Source: Acidobacteriota bacterium (lineage in GTDB: Bacteria > Acidobacteriota > Vicinamibacteria > Vicinamibacterales > CAVVIG01). Taken from it: a stretch of DNA of 60,507 nucleotides. Each line of letters begins with the position of its first letter. Position 1 is the stretch's first letter. The notes under the pieces were generated by a model. It made no database searches and was not told the DNA's origin. It saw nothing but the letters and a program-made list of their open reading frames with translations. The DNA lies in the NCBI GenBank assembly GCA_028876655.1, contig JAGWRA010000189.1:1-60507 (forward strand), written 5' to 3'. Below, in pieces: positions 31,411 through 60,388 of the stretch. A program made the translations under genes and the position numbers.

Positions 31411-31416
31411 CACCTG

Positions 31417-31507
31417 TCACGTGCAATGTGCCGCGTGCAGGGTGCAAGGTGCGGCTTGTCCGTGCCGCGTGCGCAACACCCGTTGCGCATTGCCCGTTGC
31501 CCGTTGC
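31417..31507. repeat. 13 in-phase heptamers (NNNNGTG x5, then NNGTTGC-type units) between convergent genes
   Basis: TCACGTG CAATGTG CCGCGTG CAGGGTG CAAGGTG CGGCTTG TCCGTGC CGCGTGC GCAACAC CCGTTGC GCATTGC CCGTTGC CCGTTGC. Contains the hairpin TGCGCAAC-accc-GTTGCGCA (31470-31489). Confidence 0.85.
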
Positions 31508-31525
31508 GACGCCCGGGAGGGCGCC

Positions 31526-32284: not shown

Positions 32285-33592
32285 TCAGGACTCGGCCAGC
32301 GCCGCGCGCTCCTCGGCGTCCACGCGCGCGATGGTCCGCTTGATGGACGGCGTCATCAGCACGAGCAGCACGCCGGTGACCGCCAGGATGCCGACGACGA
32401 GCAGGAAGAACCGGCTGTGCGGCATCCGGGTCCAGTAGGCCCCGATCGAGCCCGACAGGTACCCGCCGATCGACAGGCTGACGAACCAGCCGCCCATCAG
32501 CAGGCCGCGGCTGCGGGGCGGCGCGACGCGGTTGACCAGCGAGAGTCCCATCGGACTGAGCGCGATCTCGCCCATGGCGATGACGATGTAGGCCCAGACG
32601 AGCCACTGAACCGACACGCGGCCGGTGTCGCCGCCGATGAGGCCGGCCCAGGCCATCATGCCGAAGGCGCCGGCCACGAACAGGACGCCGATGAGCATCT
32701 TGACGGGCGTCGAGGGTTCGGCGTTCCGCCGCTGCAGCCACATCCAGGCCCAGACGAACAGCGGCGACAGGAGGATGACGCCCAGCGGCTCGATCGCCTG
32801 GAACTTCTCGGGCGCGATGCTGGTCAGCGTGTTGTCGCGGGCCCAGAAGGTCAGCGTGAAGCCGTTCTGGTAGAAGGCCAGCCAGAAGACGGCCGAGATG
32901 ACGAAGACCATCAGCAGCGTGATCACGCGGGCGCGGGCCTCGGCGGGCGAGACCGCCCGCGCCTCGCGCGAGGTCTCCGCGACCTTCCCGGCCGCGTCGC
33001 CGAGGTAGCGGCGGAAGCCGATGAAGACGGCCAGCGAGATCAGCATCGCCCCGGCCGCCGACGCGAACGCCACGCTCCAGCCGTAGTGGATCCGGAACCA
33101 GGACACGGTCAGGGGCGAGATGAACGCGCCGATGTTGATCCCCATGTAGAAGATGTTGAAGCCGGCGTCGCGCAGCCCCGGGTTGTCGCGATACAGGTTG
33201 CCGACGATCGTCGAGACGTTGGGCTTGAGCAGCCCGCTGCCGCAGGCCAGGAGGGTCAGGCCGGCGTAGAAGAACGGGAGCGACTCGACACCCAGCACGA
33301 GGTGGCCGAGCATCATGAGCGCGCCGCCGATGACGACCGCGCGGTAGAAGCCGAGCACGCGATCGGCGAGGAAGCCGCCGACCAGCGGCAGGAAGTAGAC
33401 GCCCGCGATGTAGCTGCCGTACACCTGGCCGACGTGGGCCACCGAGAAGTGGAGCTTCTCGTTCATGTACAGCGCGAGGATCGCCATCATCGAGTAGAAG
33501 CTGTACCGCTCCCACAGTTCGGTGAAGAACAGGACGTAGAGGCCCGGCGGATGGCGGCGGGAGGCCGCCGGCGCGCGCGAAGCTGTCGGCAT
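32285..33592 (-). CDS. POT/PTR2-family proton-dependent peptide transporter (MFS)
   Basis: FTELWERYSFYSMMAILALYM and GGFLADRVLG are signature POT motifs. Start at the ATG at 33592. Confidence 0.85.
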   Translation of the reverse strand: MPTASRAPAASRRHPPGLYVLFFTELWERYSFYSMMAILALYMNEKLHFSVAHVGQVYGSYIAGVYFLPLVGGFLADRVLGFYRAVVIGGALMMLGHLVLGVESLPFFYAGLTLLACGSGLLKPNVSTIVGNLYRDNPGLRDAGFNIFYMGINIGAFISPLTVSWFRIHYGWSVAFASAAGAMLISLAVFIGFRRYLGDAAGKVAETSREARAVSPAEARARVITLLMVFVISAVFWLAFYQNGFTLTFWARDNTLTSIAPEKFQAIEPLGVILLSPLFVWAWMWLQRRNAEPSTPVKMLIGVLFVAGAFGMMAWAGLIGGDTGRVSVQWLVWAYIVIAMGEIALSPMGLSLVNRVAPPRSRGLLMGGWFVSLSIGGYLSGSIGAYWTRMPHSRFFLLVVGILAVTGVLLVLMTPSIKRTIARVDAEERAALAES

Positions 33593-33620
33593 GCGGGGGA
33601 GTCTAGCACGGGGAGGCCTG

Positions 33621-33711
33621 TCACGTGCGACGTGCCGGGGGCCGGGTGCGACGTCGCACGGACAGGTTCGCACGTGGCACGTGGCACGTTGCGCGTGGCA
33701 CATTGCACGTG
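33621..33711. repeat. 13 in-phase heptamers dominated by GCACGTG in a divergent promoter region
   Basis: TCACGTG CGACGTG CCGGGGG CCGGGTG CGACGTC GCACGGA CAGGTTC GCACGTG GCACGTG GCACGTT GCGCGTG GCACATT GCACGTG. The first half folds as CCTGTC-a-CGTGCGACG / CGTCGCACG-GACAGG. Confidence 0.85.
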
Positions 33712-33724
33712 ACAGACTTTCCCC

Positions 33725-35140
33725 GTGCACACCCTCCTCCTCTCCACCTACGAGATGGGCCGGCAGCCGTTCGGGCTGGCATCGCCGGCGGCGTGGCTGG
33801 AGCGGGCGGGGCTCGCGGTCCGGTGCGTGGACCTGTCGCGCGACCGGCTGCTCGACGAGGCGATCCGCGAGGCGGACCTCGTCGCCTGGTACCTGCCGAT
33901 GCACACGGCGACCCGGCTGGCGGCGCCGGTGATCGAACGCGTCGGCCGCGTGCAGCCCCGGGCGCACCGCTGTGCCTACGGCCTCTACGCGCCCCTGAAC
34001 GCCTCGTTCCTCCGCGCCCGCGGCATCGACACGATTCTCGGCCCCGAGTTCGAAGCCGACCTGCTCGCGCTCGCCCGGCGCCTGGCGGACATCACGCCCA
34101 CGTCGCCGGAGGCCACACCGAGCGACGGACAGGTGAATCCGGAGCGAGGCGTCGGCGTGCCCCGCCTGCACTTCGTGCAGCCCGATCGCCGCGGCCTGCC
34201 GCCGCTCGATCGGTACGCCACCGTGCAGATGGACGATGGGACGAAGCGGGTCGCGGGCTATACGGAGGCCAGCCGCGGCTGCCGTCATACCTGCCGGCAC
34301 TGCCCGATCGTGCCGATCTACGGCGGCACCTTCCGTATCGTCCAGCCCGAGGTGGTGCTGGCCGACGTCCGGGCGCAGGTGGCGGCCGGCGCGCGCCACA
34401 TCACCTTCGGCGATCCCGACTTTCTGAACGGTCCGCGCCACGCCGTGCGGATCGTGGAGGCGCTGGCGCGTGAGCATCCCGGCGTCACCTACGACATCAC
34501 CACGAAGGTCGAGCACCTGCGGCGCCATGCGGCGGTGCTGCCGCGTCTGCACGAGACGGGCTGCCTGTTCGTCACGACGGCGGTCGAGGCAGTCGACGAT
34601 CGCATCCTGTCCCGGCTCGAGAAGGGACACACACGCGACGACTTCGTCCGCGCCGTCGAACACTGCCGGGCGATCGGGCTCGCGCTCGGCCCGACCTTCG
34701 TCGCCTTCAACCCGTGGATCACGCGCGACGGGTATTGCGATCTGCTGGAGACGATCGCGGCGCTCGATCTCGTCGAGCACGTCGCGCCGATTCAGCTCGC
34801 CATCCGGCTGATCGTCACGCAGGGGTCGCGGCTGCTCGAGTTGCCCGAGATCCGCGAGCAGGTCGGGCCGTTCGATGCCGCGGCGCTGTCGTACCCGTGG
34901 CGGCACGTGGACCCGGCGGTCGACGCGCTGCAGCAGACGGTGATGACGCTGGTCGGCACCCGGCCGGGCGCGCCGCGCCGCGAGGTGTTCGAGGCGGTCC
35001 GGCAGCTCGCCCATGCCTGCGCTGGCAGCCGGCCGCCCGCGCCGCGCCGGGAAGCCCGCGCCCGCGCCACGGTCCCGTACCTCAACGAGCCCTGGTACTG
35101 TTGAGCGGAGCCGAATGAAGAGCAGGTGGCTCTGATCTGA
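33725..35140 (+). CDS. B12-binding-domain radical SAM protein, probable selenoprotein with a C-U-A-E-P tail (TGA 35102-35104 recoded)
   Basis: CRHTCRHC gives the CX3CX2C motif. The ORF-track stop TGA directly follows ...LNEPWYC. The next in-frame codons are GCG GAG CCG (A-E-P), then NEEQVALI and TGA at 35138-35140. If the TGA is not recoded, the CDS ends at 35104. Confidence 0.7.
35106..35134 (+). promoter_or_regulatory. candidate bacterial SECIS hairpin
   Basis: CGGAGCC (35106-12) pairs with GGCTCTG (35128-34): 7 bp including one G-U, with a 15-nt loop containing GGT. It starts 2 nt after the TGA. Confidence 0.4.
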
Positions 35141-35150
35141 TGATTGATAC

Positions 35151-35315
35151 GTACGACGTGCCACGTGCGAGGTACGACGTGCGAAACGTACGGCGTACCA
35201 CCGGACGACGTGCGAATCGTATGACGAACTCCGATGGCGGTGCGAGCCGTACGTCGTACTTCTGTACGTAGTTACATCCCGCTCGTCGTACCTCGCACGT
35301 CGTACGTGGCACGTC
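35151..35315. repeat. long inverted repeat assembled from shuffled heptamer modules GTACGAC / GTGCCAC / GTGCGAG
   Basis: Left arm 35151-35185 reads GTACGAC GTGCCAC GTGCGAG GTACGAC GTGCGAA. The reverse complement of the right arm 35285-35312 reads GTGCCAC GTACGAC GTGCGAG GTACGAC. Confidence 0.8.
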
Positions 35316-35331
35316 TCTTCACCACACCAAC

Positions 35332-36612
35332 ATGCCCCATCGGGCCCCCCGCCTCCTCCTCCTCGCCACCACGACCGGCTACCAGACCCGCGCGTTCGGG
35401 GAGGCGGCGGGGCGGCAGGGAGTGGCGCTGGCGTTCGGGACCGACCGGTGCGATCGGCTGGACGACCCCTGGCGCGATGCCGCGGTGCCGATCCGCTTCC
35501 ACCGGGAAGACGAGGCGGTGGCGGCGCTGGTCGACGCGGCCGCCCGGGAGCCGATCGACGGGATCCTGGTCGTCGGCGATCGGCCGGTCGTGATTGCCGC
35601 CCGCCTGGCCGCGGCGCTCGGATGGCCCGGCCATCCGCCCGCGGCCGCCGCGGTCAGCCGTGACAAGCGGCTGACGCGCGAGGCGCTGGCCGGCGCGGGC
35701 CTGCCGGTGCCGTGGTTCCGCACGGTGCCCCTCGATACCGATCCCGTGTCGCTCGCCGGCACGGTGCCGTACCCGTGCGTCGTCAAGCCGCTGGCCCTGT
35801 CGGGCAGCCGGGGCGTGATCCGTGCCGACGATCCCGCCACGTTCGAGCAGGCGTTCGAGCGTCTCGGGCGGTTGCTCCGGTCGACGGACGTCCGGGCCCT
35901 GCACGACCCGGCCCTCGACTTCGTGCAGATCGAGGGGTTCATTCCGGGGCAGGAGTACGCGGTCGAGGCGCTCCTCGACCGTGGGCGGCTTCGCGTGCTG
36001 GCGATCTTCGAGAAGCCCGATCCGCTCGACGGCCCGTTCTTCGAGGAGACGATCTACGTGACGCCGCCGCGCGTGATGGCCGCGGTGACCGACGCCATCG
36101 AGTCCGCCGTCGCGGCGGCCGCCCGCGCCATCGGCCTGTACCACGGGCCGATCCACGCCGAGTGTCGCGTCGGTGCCGGCGGCATCTTCGTCCTCGAGGT
36201 GGCGGCGCGGCCGATCGGCGGGCTGTGCGCGCGGGCCCTCCGCTTCGAGGCGCCCGGCCTGTCCGGGCCGTGCTCGCTGGAGGATCTGCTGGTGCGCCAC
36301 GCCATCGGCCAGCCGACCGACGGCTGGCGCCGCGAAGCGGCCGCGGCCGGCGTGATGATGATCCCGATTCCGCGTGCCGGGCTGTATCGCGGCGTGGACG
36401 GGGCAGACGAGGCGGCGGCCGTCGACGGGATCGAGGCCGTCGTGCTGTCGGCACGTCCCGACCAGTCCCTGGTGCCGCTGCCCGAGGGCGCCAGTTACCT
36501 GGGCTTCATCTTCGCGCGCGGCGGGACGACCGCCGCCGTGGAGGCACGGCTGCGCGAGGCGCACGGGCGCTTGCGAGTCCGGATCGACCCGGTCCTGCCG
36601 GTCGTCCGCTGA
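35332..36612 (+). CDS. ATP-grasp domain ligase (amino-acid/carboxylate-amine ligase-like)
   Basis: VSRDKRLTREALAGAGLPVP, PCVVKPLALSGSRGVIRA, IEGFIPGQEYAVEAL and GPIHAECRV give a typical ATP-grasp layout. There is no obvious RBS before the ATG at 35332. Confidence 0.75.
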   Translation: MPHRAPRLLLLATTTGYQTRAFGEAAGRQGVALAFGTDRCDRLDDPWRDAAVPIRFHREDEAVAALVDAAAREPIDGILVVGDRPVVIAARLAAALGWPGHPPAAAAVSRDKRLTREALAGAGLPVPWFRTVPLDTDPVSLAGTVPYPCVVKPLALSGSRGVIRADDPATFEQAFERLGRLLRSTDVRALHDPALDFVQIEGFIPGQEYAVEALLDRGRLRVLAIFEKPDPLDGPFFEETIYVTPPRVMAAVTDAIESAVAAAARAIGLYHGPIHAECRVGAGGIFVLEVAARPIGGLCARALRFEAPGLSGPCSLEDLLVRHAIGQPTDGWRREAAAAGVMMIPIPRAGLYRGVDGADEAAAVDGIEAVVLSARPDQSLVPLPEGASYLGFIFARGGTTAAVEARLREAHGRLRVRIDPVLPVVR

Positions 36613-36692: not shown

Positions 36693-37007
36693 ATGAGTTC
36701 CTGTGACGAACCGACCGTGCCGACGCCGCCGACCGGCCGCGAGGTGTTCTGCGTCAAGTTCCGCAAGAAGATGCCCGGTCTCACACGGCCGCCGTGGCCA
36801 GGCGAACTGGGGCAGCGGGTCTACGAGAATGTCTCGGTCGAGGCCTGGAAGCTGTGGGAAGGCCGGATGAAGATGATCCTGAACGAGTACCGCCTCATGC
36901 CCTGGCAGAAGGAAGCGCAGGAACTGGTGGCGAAGTACATGGAGGAGTTCTTCTTCGGCGAAGGCGCCGCGCTGCCCCCCGGCTACGTGCCGCAGCAGAC
37001 GAAGTGA
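36693..37007 (+). CDS. yggX: Fe(2+)-trafficking / oxidative-damage protection protein YggX
   Basis: VFCVKFRKKMPGLTRPPWPGELGQRVYENVSVEAWKLW is a close match to the YggX pattern, with an extra N-terminal extension. Confidence 0.85.
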   Translation: MSSCDEPTVPTPPTGREVFCVKFRKKMPGLTRPPWPGELGQRVYENVSVEAWKLWEGRMKMILNEYRLMPWQKEAQELVAKYMEEFFFGEGAALPPGYVPQQTK

Positions 37008-46050: not shown

Positions 46051-48087
46051 CTACCCCTGCGCCACCGATCCCACTTCCACGCGGGCGTCGTTGAAGCAGG
46101 CCCCGCCGCCGAGGTCGGTCAGGGTATCGGGCGCGAGCGCCGTGGCCGTCCGGCCGTTGGCGGTGTTCCGGCACCAGATCCCCTTGGGCAGGCTGACGAC
46201 GCCGGGCCGCAGCGCCGGTGCGAGCCCGAGCCGGCAGCGGACTTCGCCGAGATCGTTGAAGACCCGCACCAGGTCCCCCTCCTCCAGCCCGCGCGCCCGG
46301 GCATCGTCGGGGTGCATCAGCAGGCGGACGTCGGGCCGGGGCAGTTCACCGAGCGTGGAGCTGATCGTCCGATCGCTCGCCGGCGAGATCAGCGCGAGCG
46401 GGTAGCGGGTCTGGCTCGCCTCGGGCTGGTAGCGGTACAGCCCGGCCGGGGCACTCGCCTCGAGGGCCTCGGGAAACAGGTCGACGCGGCCGTCGGCCGT
46501 CCGGGGAAAGACGTCGACGAACTGCACGGGAGTGGATCCGAAGGGCGGGACCGGCCGTTCGTCGCGCCGGAGGGCGGCCCCGGCGTCGCCCGGCAGCGCG
46601 TCGAGCACCTTGAACAGCACGTCGGTGTCCTCGGCGGGCGCGTCCGCGTCGACGAGCTCCAGCCGCTGGGCCAACTCGCCGAAGACCTCGGCATTGGGCC
46701 GGGCCTCGCCGCTCGCCTCGACCACGGGGTGGACGATCTGGAGGCTGATCGGGCCGTACGCGCGCGCCAGGTCGTAGTGTTCGAGAAAGGTCGTGGCCGG
46801 CAGGACCACGTCCGCGTACAGCGCCGTGTCGGTCATCACCTGCTCGAAGACGACGGTGAACAGGTCGTCGCGCTCCAGTCCCTTCAGCACCAGGTTCTGG
46901 TTCGGCATCGTGACGGCCGGGTTGCAGTTGTAGACGAACAGCATCTGCACCGGCGGATCGTCGAACGCCGTGAGGGCGCGGCCGAGCTGGTTCATGTTCA
47001 CGAGCCGCGTCGGCGGCTCCTCGGCCTCGATCCAGGTCTGCCGGATGCCCCAGGCGGGGGAGTTGCTCATCGCGTACCCGCCGCCCCGCACGCCGAACTT
47101 GCCGCCCACGGCCGGCAGCGCCAGGACGGCGAGCGCCGCGTTGCCCCCGTTGCGGTTCCGCTCCAGCCCCCAGCCGCAGCGGATGAGCGCCGGCGAGCTC
47201 TCGGCGTACCAGCGGGCGAGCGTCTCGATCCGTTCCGCCTCGACGCCCGCGGTGTCGGCGGCCCGCGCCGGCGTCCACGGTTCGGCGCGCTCCTGGAGCC
47301 GCTCGCTCCCGCGCGTGTGAGCGTCGAGGAACGCGCGATCGGCGTGGCCGTGGGCGAACAGGTGCCGGTGGACGGCCAGCGCCACCGCCACGTCCGTGCC
47401 CGGCCGGACCGGCAGGTGCAGGTCGGCGAGCCGCGCGAGCGGCGTGACGCGCGGATCGATGACGACGAGGCGGGCGCCGCGGCGCTGCGCCTCGCGGACG
47501 TACGGGACGAGATGGATGCCCGAGACCGACGGGTTCACGCCCCAGAGCACGATCAGCCGGGCGTGGACGAAGTCCTCGTAGGCGACCGACGGCATCTTGC
47601 CGTACAGCGCCTGGTTGGCGGCGCCGGTGGGGGCCGCGCAGACCGTGCGGGCCAGCCGCGAGGTGCCGAAGCGCCGCCACAGCTCGGCATCGGCGGTGTC
47701 CTGCGAGACGAGGCCGTTCGAGCCGCCGTACGAGAAGGGCAGGATGGCCGCGCCGCCCCAGCGATCGCGGATCTCCTGCATGCGGCGGGCGACCAGGTCG
47801 AGCGCTTCGTCCCAGGTCACCCGGCTGAACAGCCCCTGGCCCTTGGCGCCCTTGCGCACCGCGGGATAGAGCAGCCGGTCGGGGCTGTAGACCCGCTCGG
47901 CGAAGCGGCGGACCTTGGCGCAGATGAAGCCGCCGGTGACGGGGTTGCGCCGCGAGCCGTCGACGGCGATCACGCGGCCGCGCTGCACGGTGGCGCTGAG
48001 GCTGCAGCCGTCGGGGCAGTCGAGGGGACAGGCGGTGTCCACGGTCGAGGCCGGGCCGCCGTGCTGGCGAAGGGGCGCGTCACGCAT
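46051..48087 (-). CDS. molybdopterin (bis-MGD) oxidoreductase family protein
   Basis: N-terminal 4Fe-4S motif CPLDCPDGCSL...C, followed by MopB-like segments. Cys (TVCAAP) sits where some relatives have Sec. Start at the ATG at 48087. Confidence 0.85.
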   Translation of the reverse strand: MRDAPLRQHGGPASTVDTACPLDCPDGCSLSATVQRGRVIAVDGSRRNPVTGGFICAKVRRFAERVYSPDRLLYPAVRKGAKGQGLFSRVTWDEALDLVARRMQEIRDRWGGAAILPFSYGGSNGLVSQDTADAELWRRFGTSRLARTVCAAPTGAANQALYGKMPSVAYEDFVHARLIVLWGVNPSVSGIHLVPYVREAQRRGARLVVIDPRVTPLARLADLHLPVRPGTDVAVALAVHRHLFAHGHADRAFLDAHTRGSERLQERAEPWTPARAADTAGVEAERIETLARWYAESSPALIRCGWGLERNRNGGNAALAVLALPAVGGKFGVRGGGYAMSNSPAWGIRQTWIEAEEPPTRLVNMNQLGRALTAFDDPPVQMLFVYNCNPAVTMPNQNLVLKGLERDDLFTVVFEQVMTDTALYADVVLPATTFLEHYDLARAYGPISLQIVHPVVEASGEARPNAEVFGELAQRLELVDADAPAEDTDVLFKVLDALPGDAGAALRRDERPVPPFGSTPVQFVDVFPRTADGRVDLFPEALEASAPAGLYRYQPEASQTRYPLALISPASDRTISSTLGELPRPDVRLLMHPDDARARGLEEGDLVRVFNDLGEVRCRLGLAPALRPGVVSLPKGIWCRNTANGRTATALAPDTLTDLGGGACFNDARVEVGSVAQG

Positions 48088-48227
48088 GACGGGTACGATA
48101 GCACGCCGGTCGCTTTTTTCTTGCGCTGACTCTCCCCGGCCCCCTATCCTTCGCACGCGCGGGTCTGCCGCCCGCGCGCGACCTGCGGACGCCCCATCGA
48201 CGGGTGTCCGGTCCCCCGGGAGACTTC

Positions 48228-49470: not shown

Positions 49471-50436
49471 ATGGACCTGCGACAGCTCGAAATCCTGCGC
49501 GCGATCGCCGAGACCGGGTCGTTCACCGGCTCGGGCCGCAAGCTGCACGTGTCCCAGTCGGCCATCAGCCGGCAGATTCTGCTGCTCGAGGAGGAGCTGA
49601 ACGAACCGCTGTTCCTGCGCGTGGGCCGTCAGGTCCGGATGACCCCGGCCGGCGAGGCACTGCTGCAGCTCAGCCACCGGATCTTCGAGGACATCGGCGA
49701 CACGGTCGGCGCGATCACCGATCGGACGAGGGAACTGCGCGGCACGCTGCGGCTGGCCGGCGGCATGACCGTCTGCATCTACGTCTTTCCGCCGGTGCTC
49801 AAGCACTTCCGCCGCATGCACCCCCGGGCCGAGGTCCGGGTCTCGGCGGGGCTCACCGAGAAGTCGATCCGCGAACTGCGGGCCGGCACCGCCGACTGCG
49901 GCCTGCTGACGCTGCCGATCGAGGAGCCCGACCTGGTGACGATCCCCGCCCTCAAGGAAGAGCTCCTGCTCGTGACGGCGCCGAACCACCCCTTCGCGCG
50001 CCAGCGCCGGCTCGGGCCCGAGGACCTCTCCGGGCAGCCGTTCGTCCTCTTCGAAGCGGGGTCGAACACCCGCCGGGTGATCGACGCCTTCTTCCTGCGG
50101 GCGAAGATCGAGCCGAAGATCGTGATGGACACCGAGAACGTCGAGATCATCAAGGCGATGGTCCGCGCGGGGCTCGGCATCAGCATCCTGCCGTACCTGG
50201 CGATCGCCCGCGAGGTGCAGAGCCACCAGTTCTACTGCACCCGCATCCAGGACGAGCAGCTCATCCGGCAGACCGGCTGGGTCTATCCCCGGAGCAACCG
50301 GGTTCCGCGGATGGTGCAGGAGGCGCTGCGGAGCTTCGAGGCGATTCGCGGGCAGCTGCGGCTGTCGCCGGCCCCCGGCCGGCCCCGGCCGGCCCGCCAG
50401 GCCCGCCCCGAGAACGGCCGGCCGATACATAAGTAA
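49471..50436 (+). CDS. LysR family transcriptional regulator
   Basis: MDLRQLEILRAIAETGSFTGSGRKLHVSQSAISRQI is a canonical LysR helix-turn-helix. Confidence 0.9.
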   Translation: MDLRQLEILRAIAETGSFTGSGRKLHVSQSAISRQILLLEEELNEPLFLRVGRQVRMTPAGEALLQLSHRIFEDIGDTVGAITDRTRELRGTLRLAGGMTVCIYVFPPVLKHFRRMHPRAEVRVSAGLTEKSIRELRAGTADCGLLTLPIEEPDLVTIPALKEELLLVTAPNHPFARQRRLGPEDLSGQPFVLFEAGSNTRRVIDAFFLRAKIEPKIVMDTENVEIIKAMVRAGLGISILPYLAIAREVQSHQFYCTRIQDEQLIRQTGWVYPRSNRVPRMVQEALRSFEAIRGQLRLSPAPGRPRPARQARPENGRPIHK

Positions 50437-50516: not shown

Positions 50517-50693
50517 ATGAGCATGGAACGAGTCATTTGTGTGCCGTTGAGCGACGCGGAGTGGCGGGCGTTTCTGGCGATCCAGCCGCAGCCGGTCGCG
50601 TGGCTCCAGCAGCAGATCCGGCAGCAGGTCCAGGTCGCGGCCACCCGCGAACCCCAGCCGTCCCAGACGGTCCGGTCCGCCGCCGTCAACTGA
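50517..50693 (+). CDS. hypothetical small protein (58 aa)
   Basis: GGAGG 9 nt upstream of the ATG, in a locally AT-richer leader. No recognisable domain. Confidence 0.3.
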   Translation: MSMERVICVPLSDAEWRAFLAIQPQPVAWLQQQIRQQVQVAATREPQPSQTVRSAAVN

Positions 50694-50806
50694 TCCGGCC
50701 GTCCCGTGCGGCCGCCGCCCGGCGGGCGCTCCGCCGGCGGTGGGGCCGTGCCCCTGGCCGTAGTACCCTTGCGCCTTCACGGCGCCTCACCCGATCCCGG
50801 TCCCCG

Positions 50807-52606
50807 ATGTCGCGTGTACTCGTGCTGGCGCTCGTGCTGCTGAGCGCGGCCCCGGCGGCCGCGCAGTCGTCCCGCCAGACCGGCGCGCCTCCCGTGCAGG
50901 AGACGGTGGTCGTGACGGCCACGGCCTCGCCCGTTCCCTTCCAGAATCTCGCCCGGTCGGTCGTCGTGCTGACGCACGACGAGATCGCCCGCCTGCCGGT
51001 GCAGTCGGTCAACGAGGTGCTCCGCTACGCGGCCGGCGTCGACGTGCGGGCGCGCGGGCCGCTCGGCGTGCAGGACGACTTCTCGCTGCGCGGCGCGGCG
51101 TTCGGCCAGACGCTGGTGCTGGTCGACGGCCTGCCGATCAACGACGCCCAGTCGGGCCACCACAACGGCGACATCCCCGTGCCGCTCGACGACATCGATC
51201 GCGTCGAGATCCTCTTCGGGCCCGGATCGTCCCTGTACGGGGCCGATGCCTTCGGTGGTACCGTGAACATCATCACCCGGCACCAGGGGGCGCCCGACCA
51301 GGTGCAGTTCACGGCGGGGGCCTACGGCCTGGCGGCCGGTAACGCCGTGGTGCACGCCGATCGTGGCGACGTCCACGAGACGGTCTCCTTCTCCGGCACG
51401 CGCGCGTCCGGCTTCGAGCCCGATCGCGACTTCCAGACGCTGTCGGCCAGCGCCGGCACGGCCGTCGGCCGGCACACCTACCTCTTCGTGTCCCACCTGC
51501 GGAAGGCGTTCGGCGCCTACGGCTTCTACGGCCCGGCGCCCTCGCGCGAGTGGACGAACCAGACGCTCGTCTCACTGGACCAGCAGCTCTACGCCGGCCG
51601 CACCTGGCGCGTGACCGCGCAGACCTCCTACCGGACGCACGGGGACCGGTTCCTGTACGACGACTCGATTCCCGGTTTTCCGCTGAACGTCCACCGGACG
51701 CACGAGGTGCAGGCGCAGGTGAAGGCCGCGCGGACGTGGGGGCCGGCGACGCGGCTCACCGTCGGCGCGGCGGGCGGCGGCGACTGGATCCACTCGAACA
51801 ACCTGGGGGACCACCGCTACGGCCAGGCGAGCCTGTTCGCCGAGCTGCAGCAGCGGCTCGGCACGCGCACGGTCGTCTATCCGGGGCTCCGGGTGGACCA
51901 CTACTCGAACTTCGGGACGTCGTGGAGCCCGTCGCTGTCGGTGAGCACGTGGGTGAGCCGCACGGTGAAGCTGCGCGCCTCGGCGGGGCACGCCTTCCGG
52001 ATCCCGACCTTCACCGAGCTGTACTACTCCGATCCGAGCAGTCAGGGGACGCCGACGCTGCAGCCGGAGCGGGCCTGGGGCGGGGAAGCCGGGTTCGACT
52101 GGATGCCGGACGCGCGGTGGCTCGCGTCGGCCACCCTCTTCGGCCGGCAGGACCGCAACATCATCGATTTCATCCGGCGCTCGGCGGTGGAGAAGTGGAC
52201 GGCGGCGAATCTCCGTGACGTCTCGACGGAAGGGCTGCAGCTGAGCGTCCGCCGCTTCCTGGCGGCCGGCGCCCTCGTGCAGCTGCAGTACGACTACCTC
52301 ACCGAGAACGCGGGGGCCGTCGACTACCAGTCGGAGTACGTCCTGGACTACGCGCGGCACGCCTTCAGCGGCGTCGCCAGCGTGCCGCTGCCGGTCGGCT
52401 TCGGGCTGGGCCAGCGCGTCGCCTGGACGCGTCGTGCCGACGGCCGCCACTACTGGGTGGTCGACACGCGTCTCTCGAAGCGCGTCGGCCAGGCGATGGT
52501 CTTCGTGGACGGGACGAACCTGCTGGACAGCCGCTACCAGGAGATCCACGGCGTGGACATGCCGGGCCGCTGGGTGTCGGCGGGGATCCAGGTGGGGGGG
52601 AAGTAG
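50807..52606 (+). CDS. TonB-dependent receptor (BtuB-sized)
   Basis: Signal peptide. Plug motifs DEIARLP, FSLRGA and VLVDGLPIND. C-terminal barrel. Confidence 0.85.
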   Translation: MSRVLVLALVLLSAAPAAAQSSRQTGAPPVQETVVVTATASPVPFQNLARSVVVLTHDEIARLPVQSVNEVLRYAAGVDVRARGPLGVQDDFSLRGAAFGQTLVLVDGLPINDAQSGHHNGDIPVPLDDIDRVEILFGPGSSLYGADAFGGTVNIITRHQGAPDQVQFTAGAYGLAAGNAVVHADRGDVHETVSFSGTRASGFEPDRDFQTLSASAGTAVGRHTYLFVSHLRKAFGAYGFYGPAPSREWTNQTLVSLDQQLYAGRTWRVTAQTSYRTHGDRFLYDDSIPGFPLNVHRTHEVQAQVKAARTWGPATRLTVGAAGGGDWIHSNNLGDHRYGQASLFAELQQRLGTRTVVYPGLRVDHYSNFGTSWSPSLSVSTWVSRTVKLRASAGHAFRIPTFTELYYSDPSSQGTPTLQPERAWGGEAGFDWMPDARWLASATLFGRQDRNIIDFIRRSAVEKWTAANLRDVSTEGLQLSVRRFLAAGALVQLQYDYLTENAGAVDYQSEYVLDYARHAFSGVASVPLPVGFGLGQRVAWTRRADGRHYWVVDTRLSKRVGQAMVFVDGTNLLDSRYQEIHGVDMPGRWVSAGIQVGGK

Positions 52607-52627
52607 GGACGTCCCACGTCCGACGTC

Positions 52628-52633
<6 letters not shown>
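52606..52633. repeat. four in-phase heptamers NNNACGT (GGGACGT CCCACGT CCGACGT CCTACGT)
   Basis: Seen directly between the receptor stop and the clpA stop. The last unit overlaps the clpA stop codon. The array can fold as GTAGGGACGTC / GACGTCCTAC. Confidence 0.65.
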
Positions 52634-54943
<2,310 letters not shown>

Positions 54944-56218: not shown

Positions 56219-57253
56219 TCAGGCGACCTGATCGAGCCCCTGCCGGGCGATCCGCACCCGGCAGTCGCGCATGTCGTCGCCGCGCAGTTCCCGCAGCGCG
56301 TAGGTGACGAAGGCGCGGGAGACGCGCTTGCGCCACACCAGCGTGAAGTCGGTGTTGTCCATCGGCTTGGCGACACCGAACGCCAGGTCCGCCGCCTCGG
56401 CAATCGCCTCGTCGTCGAGCCGGCGGCCGACGAGCACCGCCGCCGCCGCGGGCGCCGGCATCGGGCGCGAGGCGACGGCGCCGAGCACGAGGCGGGCCTC
56501 GGCGACCAGGTCGCCGTCGAAGCGGGCGGCAGCGGCCACCGACAGCACCGGGAAGTCGAACGAGCCGCGCCGGCGCAGCTTCCAGTACGTGCTCCGCCAG
56601 CCGTCGGCCGGGGGGAGCGTGACGTCCGCCAGCACCTCGTCGGGCCGGCGCGTCAGGTAGTCGATGCCGTCGTTCCGGTAGAGCGCGTCGAGCTCGACGG
56701 TGCGCGCCCCGGCGGCCGACACCAGGCGGACGCGGGCACCCAGGGCCATCAGGGCCGGTGCCGTGTCGGTCGACGAGACGGCGAGGCACCGCGGACTGGA
56801 GGGGGCCACCCAGCAGACCTGGCCATCCTTCTTCATGCAGAAGTCGATCGCCTTGCGCCACTCGTAGCTCTGGTCGTAATAGGTGCAGCGCGTGTCGAGG
56901 CACAGGTTGCCGCCGAGCGTTCCCATGTTGCGCAGGTGCGGCGTGGCGATCTGGGCCGCGGCCTGCCAGAGGCCCGCATAACGCGCGCGGAGGTCGGCGT
57001 GGTGCACGAGCGCCGTCAGCGTGAGGCCGCCGCCGAGCACGAGGCCGCCGTCGGCCGGGGTCACGCGCTGGATCTCGGTGACGCCGCGCAGGCCGACCAG
57101 CGTCTTCGGCACCTGCTGCCGCCGCTTCATGTTCGGCAGCACGTCGGTGCCGCCGGCGACGAGCATCGTCTCGCCGGGCGCGGCGGCCAGCAGGGCGGCC
57201 GCCTCCTCGAGCGTGCGCGCGGCACGATACTGGAACTCGGGCAGACGCATCAT
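56219..57253 (-). CDS. xanthine dehydrogenase-family FAD-binding (medium) subunit with a Cys-rich insertion
   Basis: LVAGGTDVLP FAD motif. Insertion CLDTRCTYYDQSYEWRKAIDFCMKKDGQVCWVAPSSPRC (56786-56902). The start overlaps the large-subunit stop (ATGA). Confidence 0.85.
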   Translation of the reverse strand: MMRLPEFQYRAARTLEEAAALLAAAPGETMLVAGGTDVLPNMKRRQQVPKTLVGLRGVTEIQRVTPADGGLVLGGGLTLTALVHHADLRARYAGLWQAAAQIATPHLRNMGTLGGNLCLDTRCTYYDQSYEWRKAIDFCMKKDGQVCWVAPSSPRCLAVSSTDTAPALMALGARVRLVSAAGARTVELDALYRNDGIDYLTRRPDEVLADVTLPPADGWRSTYWKLRRRGSFDFPVLSVAAAARFDGDLVAEARLVLGAVASRPMPAPAAAAVLVGRRLDDEAIAEAADLAFGVAKPMDNTDFTLVWRKRVSRAFVTYALRELRGDDMRDCRVRIARQGLDQVA

Positions 57254-59719
57254 GATCGGACCACCGTCTCCTTGTCCGCTCCGGCCGCCGCCGGCTTCTT
57301 CCGCCGCGACGTGTCGTTCACGGCGCGCCCGTCGCCGCCCTCCCAGGGCGGCGGCACGCGCAGCGGCTCGGGCCACGCGATGTCCGGAAACGACGCCGGA
57401 CCGTACCGCCCCGGCTTTCCCTCGCGCACGGCTTCGAGCGCCTTCAGGATCTTGTCCGGCGTCACCGGCACCTCGTCGATCCGGACGCCGACCGCGTCGT
57501 AGACGGCGTTGGCGAGCGCCGGCATGATCGGCAGCAGCGGCCCCTGGCCGACTTCCTTCGCGCCGAACGGCCCGGCCGGGTCCGGGTGCTCGATGAGCTC
57601 GGTGAACACCTCGGGCATGTCGAGGCTCGTGAGGCTCTTGTACTCGAGGATCGAGGGGAACTTGTGCACCAGCGCCCCCGACAGACGCGCCGGCAGCCGG
57701 CGAAACGCCTGTTCCTCCATGAGGGCTTCGCCCAGCCCCATGTAGACGCTCCCCTCGACCTGGCCGCGCACGAGCGTCGGGTTCAGGGCCCGTCCGATGT
57801 CGTGCCCGATCCAGACGCGCGGCACGGTCACCCACCCGGTCGTCTCGTCGACCTCGACCTCCACGACCGCGGCCGTGTACGAGTAGGTGGGGGACGGCCC
57901 GACGCCGCCACCCTTGAACTTCGCCGCCGACGTCGGCGGGGTGTAGGACCCGACGGTGCCGATGGTGCCGAACGCGGCCTCGGCGGCGCAGACCGCCTCC
58001 TGGAACGTCATCCCCTTGTCGGGGGCCTCGGCGTCGAACACCCGCCGGCCAGCGAAGACGAGGCGGGTCACCGGCACGTCGAGCTTGCGGCTGACCGCCT
58101 GGGCGAGCAGGTCGCGCGCCCGCTCGGCCGCCTGGATCGCGGCGTTGCCCATCATCAGCGTGACGCGGCTCGAGTACGAGCCGAGGTCGACGGGCGTCAG
58201 GTCGGTGTCGCCCGTGACCGCCCGGATGTCGAATGGCTCGACGCCGAGCACCTCCGCCACGCACGCCACCAGCACATCGTCCGATCCCTGGCCGATCTCC
58301 GTCGCCCCGCAGAAGGCGGTGACGCCGCCGCTGCGGTCGAGCTTCAGCTGCACGCCCGAATGGGGCATGTCGTTCCAGTAGATCGGCAGGCCGGCACCCG
58401 ACAGGTACGACGAGCAGGCGAGGCCGACGCCGCGGCCGCGGCCGAGCTTGCGATGCTTGTTCGTCCAGTCCGACGCCGCGACGACGCGGCGGATGCACTC
58501 GGCGAGGCCGATGGTGCCGACGCGCAGGTAGTTGGCCGTCAGCGTGTCGGGCTGCTCGACGATGCGCAGGCGCAGGTCGGCGGGATCGAGGTGCAGCGCC
58601 TCGGCGATCTTGTCGAGCTGCACTTCCTGCCCGAACCGGCTCTGTGGGGTGCCGTGCCCCCGCTTGGGGCCGCACGGCGGCTTGTTGGTGAACGTCCGGC
58701 AGCCCTGGAAGTGGTAGGCCGGGATGTGGTACGTGACCGTCTGCAGTGCGCCCGTGTAGAACGTGCTGGCGACGCCGTACGAGCCGTAGGCCCCGCCGTC
58801 GAGCAGCGTCTGCAGGTGGACGCCCGTGAGCGTGCCGTCGTGCTTCACGCCGGTGCGGAACTTCATGAGCACGGGATGGCGGCCGCGATGGCAGTAGAAG
58901 ACCTCCTCGCGCGTGAGGCAGATCTTCACGGGCCGGTCGAGCATCAGCGCGGCCTTGGCGACGACGACTTCGTGGTTGAACGGATCGCTCTTGCCGCCGA
59001 AGCCCCCGCCGTTGGGGGCGGCCACCACGCGGATGTGCGCCGGCGGCAGGTCGAGCGCCTTCGCCAGCGCGCGATGGAGATAGTGGGGCGTCTGCGTGCT
59101 CGACCAGATCACCAGCTTGCCGTCGGGATCCTTCGTCGCCAGCGACGCGTGCTGCTCGATCGGCAGATGGGTGTTCCCCTGGAAGAAGAAGACGTCCTCG
59201 AAGACCCGGTCCGCGCCCGCGAGCGCCGCCTCGACGTCGCCGAACGCCAGCGACACCTTCTTGTGGACGTTCCCCTCGTCGCCGTAGTCGTGGATGCGCG
59301 GCTCGGGATAAGCGAGGCTCTCCAGCGGGTCGGCGATCGTCCGGAGCGGCTCGTACTCGACGTCGATGAGATCGAGCGCCTCGGTCGCCGCCAGGTCGTC
59401 GCGCGCGACGACCGCGGCGACGGGATCGCCGACGAAGCGGACCCGGTCGATGCAGAGCGGGTGCTCGTCCTGGCTGACCGGCAGGATGCCGTAGGGGATC
59501 GGCAGGTCGGCGCCGGTGAGCACCAGGTGGACGCCGGGGCAGGCCCTGGCGCGCGAGACGTCGAGCCGCGCGATGCGCGCGTGCGGGACGCTCGACCGCA
59601 GCAGCTTGCAGTAGAGCATGCGCGGCAGGACCAGATCGTCGGCGAAGCGCGTCTGCCCGGTGACCTTCGCGCGCCCGTCGACGCGCCGGCGCGGGACGCC
59701 GATGACGGCGTTGTGCTGC

Positions 59720-59727
<8 letters not shown>
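57250..59727 (-). CDS. xanthine dehydrogenase-family molybdopterin-binding (large) subunit
   Basis: GVPRRRVDGRAKVTGQTRFADD N-terminus, GGGFGGK, and the overall aldehyde oxidase/XDH layout. Confidence 0.9.

Positions 59728-60388
<661 letters not shown>

What the first reader, a model, noticed from the sequence alone, without database searches (positions are those of the whole stretch)
35090..35140. In-frame TGA inside a C-U-A-E-P tail: the radical SAM gene is probably a selenoprotein truncated by ORF callers
The 459-aa ORF (33725..35104) has a CRHTCRHC radical SAM motif and a B12-binding-like N-terminus, and it ends ...LNEPWYC-TGA. The codons right after the TGA are GCG GAG CCG (A-E-P), so readthrough gives C-U-A-E-P-NEEQVALI with the next stop at 35138-35140. 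As far as I recall, 'CUAEP/CCAEP-tail radical SAM (seleno)protein' is a named family of unknown function in which Sec or Cys occupies exactly this position; I cannot verify that here. Two nt after the TGA a hairpin can form (CGGAGCC 35106-12 with GGCTCTG 35128-34, 15-nt loop containing GGU), at a position compatible with a bacterial SECIS. The Cys-Sec pair next to a radical SAM core suggests a redox-active selenenylsulfide tail.
Basis: partly seen in the sequence, partly recalled or inferred. Interest (0 to 1): 0.8.

Follow-up and report, generated by a model that had tools for sequence, protein, structure and literature searches.

The report
Selenocysteine-tailed radical SAM enzyme gene
This gene belongs to an already named family of radical SAM enzymes whose flexible tail carries selenocysteine encoded by an in-frame TGA, so ordinary gene callers cut off its last 12 residues; what the enzyme makes is still unknown.

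Summary
The ORF 33725..35104 ends ...EPWYC-TGA, and the frame continues AEPNEEQVALI to a tandem stop at 35138-35143. It scores 600.8 bits (cut-off 500) against NCBIfam NF040546, 'CUAEP/CCAEP-tail radical SAM (seleno)protein'. Reading through the TGA adds 20.9 bits and carries the profile match to its end.

In 60 of 80 related genome loci the same TGA is followed in frame by AEP (VEP in one) and a conserved tail; 16 loci have TGC or TGT there. A small hairpin 14-31 nt after the TGA is present in Sec forms, shows compensatory changes, and is absent in every Cys form across at least 10 Sec/Cys switches. It fits the bacterial SECIS consensus.

Sec machinery could not be checked because the window is a lone 60-kb contig.

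Function is inferred. The closest characterised relative is ArsL, whose Cys-rich tail holds As(III) for a SAM-derived aminocarboxypropyl radical. An L-amino-acid ligase gene lies directly downstream in about 70% of loci.

This is a new member of a known selenoprotein family. The SECIS definition, the ArsL analogy and the ligase link are the additions.

The parts
33725..35140 (+). Full coding sequence of the CUAEP-tail radical SAM selenoprotein: 471 codons including Sec460, plus the stop codon.
   Evidence: NF040546 scores 600.8 bits truncated and 621.7 bits read through, against a cut-off of 500. The start at 33725 matches the homologue consensus M-x-x-L-L-x-S-T-Y-E-M-G-R-Q.
34280..34303 (+). 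CX3CX2C radical SAM motif (C186, C190, C193), the ligands of the [4Fe-4S] cluster.
   Evidence: Read directly from the sequence. PF04055 hit. These cysteines are invariant in 109 homologues.
35099..35104 (+). Cys459 (TGT) and Sec460 (TGA) dipeptide.
   Evidence: The TGA aligns with TGC/TGT (Cys) in 16 of 80 loci and with Cys in 93 of 120 database homologues. 60 of 80 loci carry TGA here.
35105..35137 (+). Tail translated after the TGA: A-E-P-N-E-E-Q-V-A-L-I.
   Evidence: The A, E and P codons are essentially invariant at positions 1-2 and variable at position 3 across 61 Sec forms. Including the tail adds 20.9 bits to the profile score.
35138..35143 (+). True terminator, a tandem TGA TGA.
   Evidence: Read from the sequence. 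TGA therefore acts as a stop 12 codons after the Sec-TGA, so the recoding is position-specific.
35119..35133 (+). Conserved SECIS-type hairpin: stem AGAGC 35119-35123 with GCUCU 35129-35133, loop AGGUG 35124-35128. The loop starts 19 nt after the UGA.
   Evidence: Covariation in 40 type-A sequences: 89.6% of cells paired, 31 double-change cells, 0 of 500 shuffles as high. A type-B register in 21 sequences gives 90.5% paired and 0 of 500. The hairpin is absent from all 16 Cys forms. It fits the consensus rules in PMC13188914.
35106..35134 (+).
   Evidence: Thermodynamically dominant in this window (-14.8 kcal/mol, pair probability 0.999). It has no compensatory change, and its 78.6% pairing equals the shuffled mean.
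35332..36612 (+). L-amino-acid-ligase-type ATP-grasp gene, a conserved downstream partner.
   Evidence: Pfam PF13535, PF18603 (LAL_C2) and PF18130. Best solved-structure match is 3VOT, L-amino acid ligase BL00235, E = 2.6e-38. It lies directly downstream on the same strand in 56-59 of 80 loci, median gap 74 nt.
36693..37007 (+). YggX-type Fe(2+)-trafficking / oxidative-damage protection protein, a conserved third neighbour.
   Evidence: NF003817 at 110 bits (cut-off 74) and PF04362. Next to the ligase in 45-52 of 80 loci, usually on the opposite strand.
32285..33592 (-). POT-family di/tripeptide:H+ symporter, transcribed divergently from the radical SAM gene.
   Evidence: TIGR00924 at 282.7 bits and PF00854. 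Upstream and divergent in about 20 of 80 loci.

Best explanation
Shown: the gene at 33725..35140 encodes a 471-residue member of the CUAEP/CCAEP-tail radical SAM family (NCBIfam NF040546). Codon 460 (UGA 35102-35104) aligns with Cys in homologues and is followed by a conserved in-frame tail.

Strongly inferred: this UGA is decoded as selenocysteine. The recoding signal is a small mRNA hairpin inside the tail-coding sequence (stem 35119-23 with 35129-33, loop AGGUG). Its loop begins 19 nt after the UGA. With UGA in the ribosomal A site, the 5' arm of the competing, more stable hairpin (35106-12) would lie inside the ribosome. That would leave the shared 3' arm free to form the SECIS stem for SelB. 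This step is inference.

Inferred by homology, roughly 0.35-0.4 likely: the protein has an N-terminal Rossmann (B12-binding-like) domain, a CX3CX2C [4Fe-4S]/SAM core, a poorly conserved linker, and a conserved flexible arm, VPYLxEPWYC-U-AEP. Its closest characterised relative is ArsL. ArsL cleaves SAM at the C-gamma-S bond to give a 3-amino-3-carboxypropyl (ACP) radical, and holds its substrate atom, As(III), on a C-terminal CCxxC tail. By analogy, the Cys-Sec pair here holds a soft metalloid or chalcogen atom, or is itself attacked, at the SAM-derived radical. That would yield a 2-amino-4-(X)-butanoate-type amino acid.

Inferred from gene order, roughly 0.5 likely to be functionally linked: the co-oriented L-amino-acid ligase directly downstream condenses that product with another amino acid. 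The identity of X is unknown.
For: Family membership: NF040546 scores 600.8 and 621.7 bits against a cut-off of 500.

Sec decoding:
- 60 of 80 related genome loci read ...EPW[Y/F]C-TGA-AEP (one VEP) plus a conserved tail; 16 have TGC or TGT.
- 93 of 120 database homologues end ...EPWYCCAEPNPEQLTLV, and 27 are truncated at ...WYC.
- Tail codons show the pattern of protein-level selection: positions 1-2 invariant, position 3 variable.
- The gene's real stop is also TGA.

SECIS:
- Hairpin energy averages -10.6 kcal/mol in Sec forms and -4.3 in Cys forms (Mann-Whitney p = 3e-8). Against a synonymous-codon null, z is -2.5 for Sec forms and -0.6 for Cys forms.
- Covariation beats all 500 shuffles in both registers.
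- There are at least 10 independent Sec/Cys switches, and every Cys form has lost the stem.
- C22, G24, U26 and G28 are invariant, and even the third position of the CAG codon never varies.
- Loop length, stem length, G at loop position 2 and the 19-nt spacing all fit the published bSECIS model.

ArsL analogy:
- NF040542 scores 262.7 bits, E = 7e-78, aligned over residues 3-408 to profile positions 1-409 of 423.
- ArsL chemistry and the role of its tail are established experimentally.
- The tail of a Cys-form homologue is modelled as flexible: pLDDT falls from 75 to 31 over residues 441-473, while the core is about 95.
- Arsenite methyltransferase is already a listed selenoprotein family.
- Haft's preprint links CU motifs to proteins that contact heavy metals.

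Ligase link.
Against: - No selA, selB, selD or tRNA-Sec lies in the 60-kb window or in the 80 flanks. The rest of the genome is not available.
- In this window the SECIS stem is only 5 bp: -6.3 kcal/mol alone and -7.9 with a lower extension, against the model's -7.5 threshold. The competing hairpin is far more stable in isolation.
- The protein fails the ArsL cut-off (262 against 450). It has two chalcogen ligands in the tail rather than three.
- No arsM, ars operon or metal-resistance genes lie nearby. The flanks are housekeeping genes: aconitase, G6PD, a Mo-oxidoreductase and LemA.
- The ligase partner is missing in the Chloroflexota and Nonomuraea loci examined. The link may be specific to Acidobacteriota or simply syntenic.
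- Nothing shows that this family cleaves SAM to MTA rather than to 5'-deoxyadenosine.
Confidence: 0.85

Rival explanations
1. Redox tail. The Cys-Sec pair cycles between a selenenylsulfide and a selenolate/thiolate, like the GCUG tail of mammalian thioredoxin reductase. It would shuttle electrons to or from the active site, or resolve a product adduct, rather than hold the substrate.
For: Sec usually replaces redox-active Cys (general knowledge; theme of PMC1794560). Vicinal Cys-Sec on a flexible C-terminal arm is the geometry of the thioredoxin reductase tail (my own knowledge). Sec and Cys interchange freely, with at least 10 switches.
Against: There is no flavin or NAD(P)H domain, and no thioredoxin-like partner in the conserved neighbourhood. 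The only characterised homologue uses its tail cysteines as substrate ligands. Removing that tail abolishes product formation but not SAM cleavage. The two readings are not mutually exclusive.
Confidence: 0.2
2. The TGA is an ordinary stop. The protein ends at ...EPWYC, and the downstream similarity reflects a recently decayed CCAEP tail or chance.
For: No Sec machinery could be shown for this genome. Database records, including an NCBI one named for this family (P0002), end at WYC. The SECIS stem in this window is short.
Against: The tail is kept in frame in 60 species, with a synonymous-type substitution pattern. The hairpin covaries and is present only with TGA across at least 10 switches. 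The tail adds 20.9 profile bits. A decaying tail would accumulate frameshifts and stops.
Confidence: 0.03
3. Canonical chemistry. The enzyme is an ordinary 5'-deoxyadenosyl-radical enzyme, cobalamin-dependent or not, of class-B architecture: a methylase, dehydratase or C-C bond former. It would act on a peptide or small molecule, and the CU tail would be an accessory metal or cluster ligand.
For: The motif is a canonical CX3CX2C. The fold matches AprD4, OxsB, TsrM and MgmA. Weak NCBIfam hits go to B12 radical SAM methylases.
Against: Those hits are at most 45 bits, against 262 bits for ArsL. ArsL has the same motif and architecture yet makes the ACP radical. ArsL's tail does not carry an auxiliary cluster.
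Confidence: 0.3

Closest known systems
NCBIfam NF040546, CUAEP/CCAEP-tail radical SAM (seleno)protein (function uncharacterised; mentioned in Haft's preprint 10.1101/2022.07.06.499078)
   Same: Passes the curated equivalog cut-off. Has the CX3CX2C core, the EPWYC-[U/C]-AEP tail and the same overall length.
   Different: Nothing defining differs; this is a member. The window tail reads N-E-E where most members have N-P-E or T-x-E, and its SECIS stem is at the short end of the family's range.
ArsL, arsinothricin biosynthesis radical SAM protein (NF040542, RCCLKC-tail family)
   Same: Homologous over the whole core (262.7 bits, E = 7e-78, residues 3-408). Same N-terminal domain plus CX3CX2C core. 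Vicinal chalcogen residues on a C-terminal tail.
   Different: Below the ArsL cut-off of 450. The tail is C-U-AEP rather than R-CC-LK-C, so two ligands rather than three. The linker before the tail is about 40 residues longer. There are no arsM or arsQ neighbours. The conserved partner is an L-amino-acid ligase instead.
Bacterial SECIS consensus (bSECISearch model; E. coli fdhF type)
   Same: A hairpin inside the coding sequence just 3' of the UGA. Loop of 4-5 nt with G at position 2 followed by G or U. Upper stem of 5-8 bp. 19 nt between the UGA and the loop.
   Different: Very compact, and overlaps the last codons of the gene. Two registers occur in the family, a 5-nt loop (AGGUG or AGUUG) and a 4-nt loop (AGUU), dictated by which tail peptide is encoded. 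In this window a stronger mutually exclusive hairpin competes.
Thioredoxin reductase C-terminal Gly-Cys-Sec-Gly redox tail
   Same: Adjacent Cys-Sec on a flexible C-terminal arm. This comparison rests on my own knowledge; flexibility is.
   Different: No flavoprotein core. Sec is 12 residues from the C-terminus rather than penultimate. No evidence of redox cycling.
L-amino acid ligases (BL00235, PDB 3VOT; BacD alanine-anticapsin ligase), for the neighbouring gene
   Same: Full-length match to 3VOT (E = 2.6e-38). ATP-grasp_4 plus LAL_C2 domains. Pairing a ligase with an unusual amino acid recalls bacilysin-type logic (my own knowledge).
   Different: Substrates are unknown. The genomic context is housekeeping genes, not a recognisable biosynthetic island.

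Membership tests
NF040546 CUAEP/CCAEP-tail radical SAM (seleno)protein | Whole-protein HMM score at or above the curated equivalog cut-off of 500 bits. | tested here: met
   600.8 bits truncated; 621.7 bits with U replaced by C and read through.
NF040546 CUAEP/CCAEP-tail radical SAM (seleno)protein | C-terminal C-[U/C]-A-E-P motif. | tested here: met
   TGT TGA GCG GAG CCG at 35099-35113. It aligns with CCAEP in homologues.
NF040546 CUAEP/CCAEP-tail radical SAM (seleno)protein | Radical SAM CX3CX2C cluster motif. | tested here: met
   C186, C190 and C193. PF04055 at 62.7 bits.
Bacterial selenoprotein | In-frame UGA aligned with Cys in homologues. | tested here: met
   16 of 80 loci have TGC or TGT, and 93 of 120 proteins have Cys, at this column.
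Bacterial selenoprotein | Coding sequence conserved downstream of the UGA. | tested here: met
   60 loci keep the frame and the AEP...Q motif. Variation is concentrated at third codon positions.
Bacterial selenoprotein | bSECIS hairpin: loop 3-9 nt, stem 4-16 bp, G in the first two loop positions, 16-37 nt from the UGA, MFE at or below -7.5 kcal/mol. | tested here: met
   Loop AGGUG, 5-bp stem, 19-nt spacing. Energy is -6.3 kcal/mol for the stem alone and -7.9 with a lower extension, so borderline in this window. The family mean is -10.6. Covariation beats all 500 shuffles.
Bacterial selenoprotein | selA, selB, selC (tRNA-Sec) and selD present in the same genome. | not testable with these tools
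   None in the 60.5-kb window or in the 80 loci.
Bacterial selenoprotein | Selenium demonstrated in the protein. | not testable with these tools
   Needs 75Se labelling or mass spectrometry.
ArsL (NF040542) | HMM score at or above the 450-bit cut-off. | tested here: not met
   262.7 bits.
ArsL (NF040542) | C-terminal RCCLKC (CCxxC) As(III)-binding motif. | tested here: not met
   The tail is C-U-A-E-P with no third Cys.
ArsL (NF040542) | arsM and arsQ genes in the neighbourhood. | tested here: not met
   The neighbours are a POT transporter, an L-amino-acid ligase, YggX and housekeeping genes.
ArsL (NF040542) | Reductive SAM cleavage to MTA plus an ACP radical. | not testable with these tools
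   Needs an enzyme assay.
Cobalamin-dependent (class B) radical SAM enzymes | N-terminal Rossmann B12-binding domain fused to the radical SAM core. | tested here: met
   PF02310 is recorded on homologues. Foldseek top hits are AprD4, OxsB, TsrM and MgmA.
Cobalamin-dependent (class B) radical SAM enzymes | Actual cobalamin binding and use. | not testable with these tools
   To my knowledge the best structural match, AprD4, does not use cobalamin. No cobalamin requirement appears in the ArsL reconstitution.

The most novel reading that the evidence does not exclude
The CUAEP family is a second, far more widespread ArsL-type 'noncanonical' radical SAM enzyme. It would use a swinging Cys-Sec arm to present a bound soft atom (As, Sb, Se, Te or a sulfur/selenium species) to a SAM-derived 3-amino-3-carboxypropyl radical, forming a carbon-heteroatom bond. 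The resulting methionine-like amino acid would be built into a dipeptide by the co-transcribed L-amino-acid ligase. That would be an unrecognised, near-housekeeping small-molecule pathway of soil Acidobacteriota.
Probability: 0.25. Interest if true: 0.8.

Novelty: new member of a known kind. Interest (0 to 1): 0.4.

Why it matters
For annotation: the gene call should run to 35140 with Sec at codon 460. Database entries for this family, including ones named by NCBI, are commonly truncated at ...WYC.

Most of the 80 best are Acidobacteriota, abundant soil bacteria. The family's function is unknown.

This work adds three things that make the function testable.
1. A SECIS element defined by covariation, which can be used to find and correctly annotate members.
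2. The homology to ArsL. It predicts a simple assay outcome: MTA rather than 5'-deoxyadenosine, and tail-dependent product formation.
3. A conserved ligase partner, which predicts a dipeptide end product.

If the ArsL analogy holds, it would widen the known range of ACP-radical chemistry. It would also give a rare case of Sec used as a substrate-binding rather than a redox residue.

Tried and rejected
- ARAGORN and Rfam on the whole window found no tRNA-Sec and no RNA family hit.
- NCBIfam annotation of 29 window proteins found no selA, selB or selD. A LysR regulator at 49471-50433 scores 161 bits to the 'selenium metabolism-associated LysR' family, but that is below its 250-bit cut-off and no better than other LysR families. 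I drew no inference from it.
- Local ARAGORN, plus tblastn with an E. coli SelD sequence recalled from memory, over all 80 loci found nothing. This was a weak test.
- An exact-sequence look-up of the window protein in the contig index returned no record, so the source sample was not identified.
- I looked for arsenic or metal genes among conserved neighbours. The recurrent flanking families turned out to be aconitase, G6PD, a Mo-oxidoreductase and LemA. The Chloroflexota loci have an arginase-family gene, DinB, Fpg or a GFO-family oxidoreductase instead of the ligase.
- I ran a structure prediction hoping the tail would dock confidently near the cluster. The tail is modelled with low confidence, so it shows only that the arm is flexible.
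- The solved-structure sequence search found no ArsL or family structure.
Full report
**1. The observation**

- A GTG-start ORF at 33725..35104 encodes 459 residues, with CRHTCRHC at residues 186-193 (34280-34303).
- It ends ...VPYLNEPWYC (TGT 35099-35101) followed by TGA at 35102-35104.
- The same frame continues GCG GAG CCG AAT GAA GAG CAG GTG GCT CTG ATC (AEPNEEQVALI), then TGA 35138-35140 and a second in-frame TGA.

The hairpin CGGAGCC (35106-12) with GGCTCTG (35128-34) exists and is the minimum-free-energy fold of the stretch: -14.8 kcal/mol, z = -2.3. An 11-codon open tail is not improbable in DNA of 70.6% GC. The case therefore rests on homology, not on the open frame.

**2. The family is real and the protein is a member**

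NCBIfam holds NF040546, 'CUAEP/CCAEP-tail radical SAM (seleno)protein', an equivalog model with a 500-bit cut-off.
- The truncated protein scores 600.8 bits over profile positions 2-457 of 468.
- With the TGA read as Cys and the tail included, it scores 621.7 bits over positions 2-467. The 11 residues after the TGA therefore match the family's own C-terminus.
- Pfam sees only the generic radical SAM domain.
- The second-best NCBIfam hit is ArsL (NF040542) at 262.7 bits, E = 7e-78, aligned almost end to end but below its 450-bit cut-off. All other families score 45 bits or less.

**3. The TGA column is Cys in homologues**

Of the 120 best database homologues, 93 end ...EPWYCCAEPNPEQLTLV or a close variant. 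The other 27 stop at ...EPWYC, including an NCBI record already named for this family.

A scan of species-representative genomes found 585 relatives. In the best 80 loci:
- 60 read ...EPW[Y/F]C-TGA-AEP (one VEP), followed by a conserved tail in frame;
- 16 have TGC or TGT at that codon;
- in 4 the motif was not found, in some because the contig or the match ends before it.

Across the 61 Sec-form sequences, window included, the Ala, Glu and Pro codons after the TGA are essentially invariant at positions 1-2. They vary at position 3, with entropies of 1.31, 0.78 and 1.60 bits. That is the signature of selection on the encoded amino acids. The gene's real terminator is itself TGA, so the read-through must be site-specific.

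**4. The recoding signal**

Numbering from the T of the TGA as column 1, the 61 Sec-form sequences align without gaps.
- Forty of them, including the window, can form a stem between columns 16-22 and 28-34 around a 5-nt loop, AGGUG or AGUUG.
- Twenty-one, mostly Terriglobia-type tails, form a stem between columns 16-22 and 27-33 around the loop AGUU.
- C22, G24, U26 and G28 are invariant in all 61, and A23 nearly so. Even the third base of the Gln codon CAG never varies.

Pair counts support the stem in both registers:
- 5-nt-loop register: 89.6% of cells paired, 31 cells with changes on both sides, no shuffle of 500 reaching the observed values, and slid controls at 39-57%.
- 4-nt-loop register: 90.5% paired, 12 double changes, 0 of 500.

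It has no double change, and its 78.6% pairing equals the shuffled mean of 78.7%.

The hairpin is specific to Sec forms.
- Mean energy of columns 14-36 is -10.6 kcal/mol in Sec forms and -4.3 in Cys forms (Mann-Whitney p = 3e-8).
- Against a null of synonymous recodings, Sec forms give z = -2.5 and Cys forms z = -0.6.
- On a neighbour-joining tree of the proteins, at least 10 Sec/Cys switches are needed. No Cys form keeps more than 4 stacked pairs, and most keep 0-2.

The element fits the published bacterial SECIS model: loop 3-9 nt, stem 4-16 bp, G in the first two loop positions followed by G or U, and 16-37 nt between UGA and loop. Here the spacing is 19 nt.

**5. A caveat for this window**

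Its SECIS stem is at the short end of the family's range: AGAGC 35119-23 with GCUCU 35129-33, 5 bp. That is -6.3 kcal/mol alone and -7.9 with a lower extension. In isolation the competing outer hairpin wins completely, with pair probability 0.999.

I infer, but have not shown, that this does not matter at the moment of decoding. With UGA in the A site the ribosome covers roughly the next dozen nucleotides. That would include the outer helix's 5' arm (35106-12) and would free the shared 3' arm for the inner stem.

**6. Sec machinery**

The window is a complete 60,507-base contig. Nothing in it is selA, selB, selD or tRNA-Sec, and none turned up in the 80 flanking regions.

The indirect evidence is the co-variation of TGA with a SECIS-type hairpin across many lineages. 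Acidobacteria are also on record as having selenoproteins (PMC1794560).

**7. What the protein is likely to do**

A model of a Cys-form homologue (62% identical to the window protein, tail EQVALV) is confident for the core, with mean pLDDT 89. It matches AprD4, OxsB, TsrM and MgmA, that is, an N-terminal Rossmann (B12-binding-like) domain plus a radical SAM barrel. Confidence falls from 75 to 31 over residues 441-473, so the linker and tail are modelled as a flexible arm.

The only characterised relative is ArsL. It has the same CX3CX2C motif but cleaves SAM to methylthioadenosine and a 3-amino-3-carboxypropyl radical. Its C-terminal CCxxC tail binds the substrate As(III). Removing the tail leaves SAM cleavage intact but abolishes product formation, and the tail does not hold an auxiliary cluster.

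By analogy, the Cys-Sec arm here is most simply a holder for a soft substrate atom. Two things fit this. Arsenite methyltransferase is already a listed selenoprotein family. And the one paper that mentions this family notes that CU motifs are otherwise seen largely in proteins that contact heavy metals, such as MerB-like SaoL, HgcA and MerT.

Against a simple 'second ArsL':
- the tail offers two ligands, not three;
- the linker is about 40 residues longer;
- there is no ars context.

**8. Gene neighbourhood**

- An ATP-grasp gene of the L-amino-acid-ligase type lies directly downstream on the same strand in 56-59 of 80 loci, with a median gap of 74 nt. It carries PF13535, LAL_C2 and ATPgrasp_N, and its best solved relative is 3VOT/BL00235 at E = 2.6e-38.
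- A YggX-type Fe(2+)-trafficking protein follows in 45-52 loci.
- A POT peptide transporter is divergent upstream in about 20.
- In six Terriglobia-type loci a DUF169 gene lies just downstream of the radical SAM gene; in five of them it sits between that gene and the ligase.
- Beyond this module the flanks differ between lineages and are housekeeping genes.
- The Chloroflexota and Nonomuraea members examined lack the ligase.

The pairing suggests that the radical SAM product is an amino acid that is then ligated. The housekeeping context argues against a typical antibiotic island.

**9. Comparison with what is known, and novelty**

The selenoprotein status and the family name are already in NCBIfam and in one preprint, so the core of the finding is not new. 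The window gene is a new member of a known kind.

The searched literature returned only that one preprint for the family name, and it calls the family uncharacterised. I did not search separately for the following three points, which appear to be new:
- the covariation-supported SECIS, with its two registers;
- the explicit mechanistic analogy to ArsL;
- the conserved ligase/YggX module.

**10. Verdict**

| Claim | Assessment |
|---|---|
| Observation | confirmed |
| Interpretation | supported, with the hairpin reassigned and the redox idea ranked second |
| Sec decoding | about 0.9-0.95 |
| ArsL-like ACP chemistry with a substrate-holding Cys-Sec arm | about 0.35-0.4 |
| Functional coupling to the ligase | about 0.5 |
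| Interest | moderate (0.4), because the main claim is already catalogued |

Noticed in passing
window 31413-31510, 33610-33723, 35143-35317; also 52609-52666: The intergenic gaps around the radical SAM gene carry related long imperfect palindromes built from roughly 7-nt periodic GCACGTG/GCGACGT-like units. They are very rich in ACGT against a background of 0.44 per 100 nt. The arms 33610-33660/33673-33723 are 73% complementary, and 35146-35190/35273-35317 are 80%. The copy between the radical SAM gene and the ligase fills a 191-nt gap that is only about 74 nt in other genomes, so it looks like an inserted REP-like element. It could affect co-transcription.
   Followed up: partly
L023 4543-5259; L033 11504-12253; also L021, L031, L038, L071: In six Terriglobia-type loci a DUF169 (PF02596) gene with conserved cysteines lies just downstream of the radical SAM gene; in five of them it sits between that gene and the L-amino-acid ligase. 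It may be a third component of the pathway. More distant copies lie a few kb away in L077 and L080.
   Followed up: partly
window 36693-37007: A YggX-type Fe(2+)-trafficking / oxidative-damage protection gene sits next to the ligase in 45-52 of 80 loci, across classes of Acidobacteriota and usually on the opposite strand. It may protect or supply the Fe-S enzyme, or it may be plain synteny.
   Followed up: partly
window 35138-35143: The gene ends in a tandem in-frame TGA TGA, 12 codons after the Sec-TGA.
   Followed up: no
window 46051-48153 (-), 49471-50433 (+), 57250-60385 (-): Also in the window: a molybdopterin oxidoreductase of the Fdh/DMSO-reductase type with no in-frame TGA; a LysR regulator scoring 161 bits to the 'selenium metabolism-associated LysR' family, below its cut-off; and the alpha and gamma subunits of a 4-hydroxybenzoyl-CoA reductase / xanthine dehydrogenase-like enzyme. 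None reaches a selenium-specific family cut-off.
   Followed up: partly
window 50537-52603: A TonB-dependent receptor whose best match is the vitamin B12 receptor family (135.7 bits, well below the cut-off). No cobalamin riboswitch was found by Rfam.
   Followed up: no
L054 12003-13262; L073 11667-12746: In two Chloroflexota loci an arginase-family gene lies 0.5-0.6 kb downstream of the radical SAM gene and there is no ligase. In L054 a 118-aa ORF intervenes.
   Followed up: no
database proteins P0002-P0120: [quoted passage not shown] Truncated calls of this family are therefore common in public records.
   Followed up: yes
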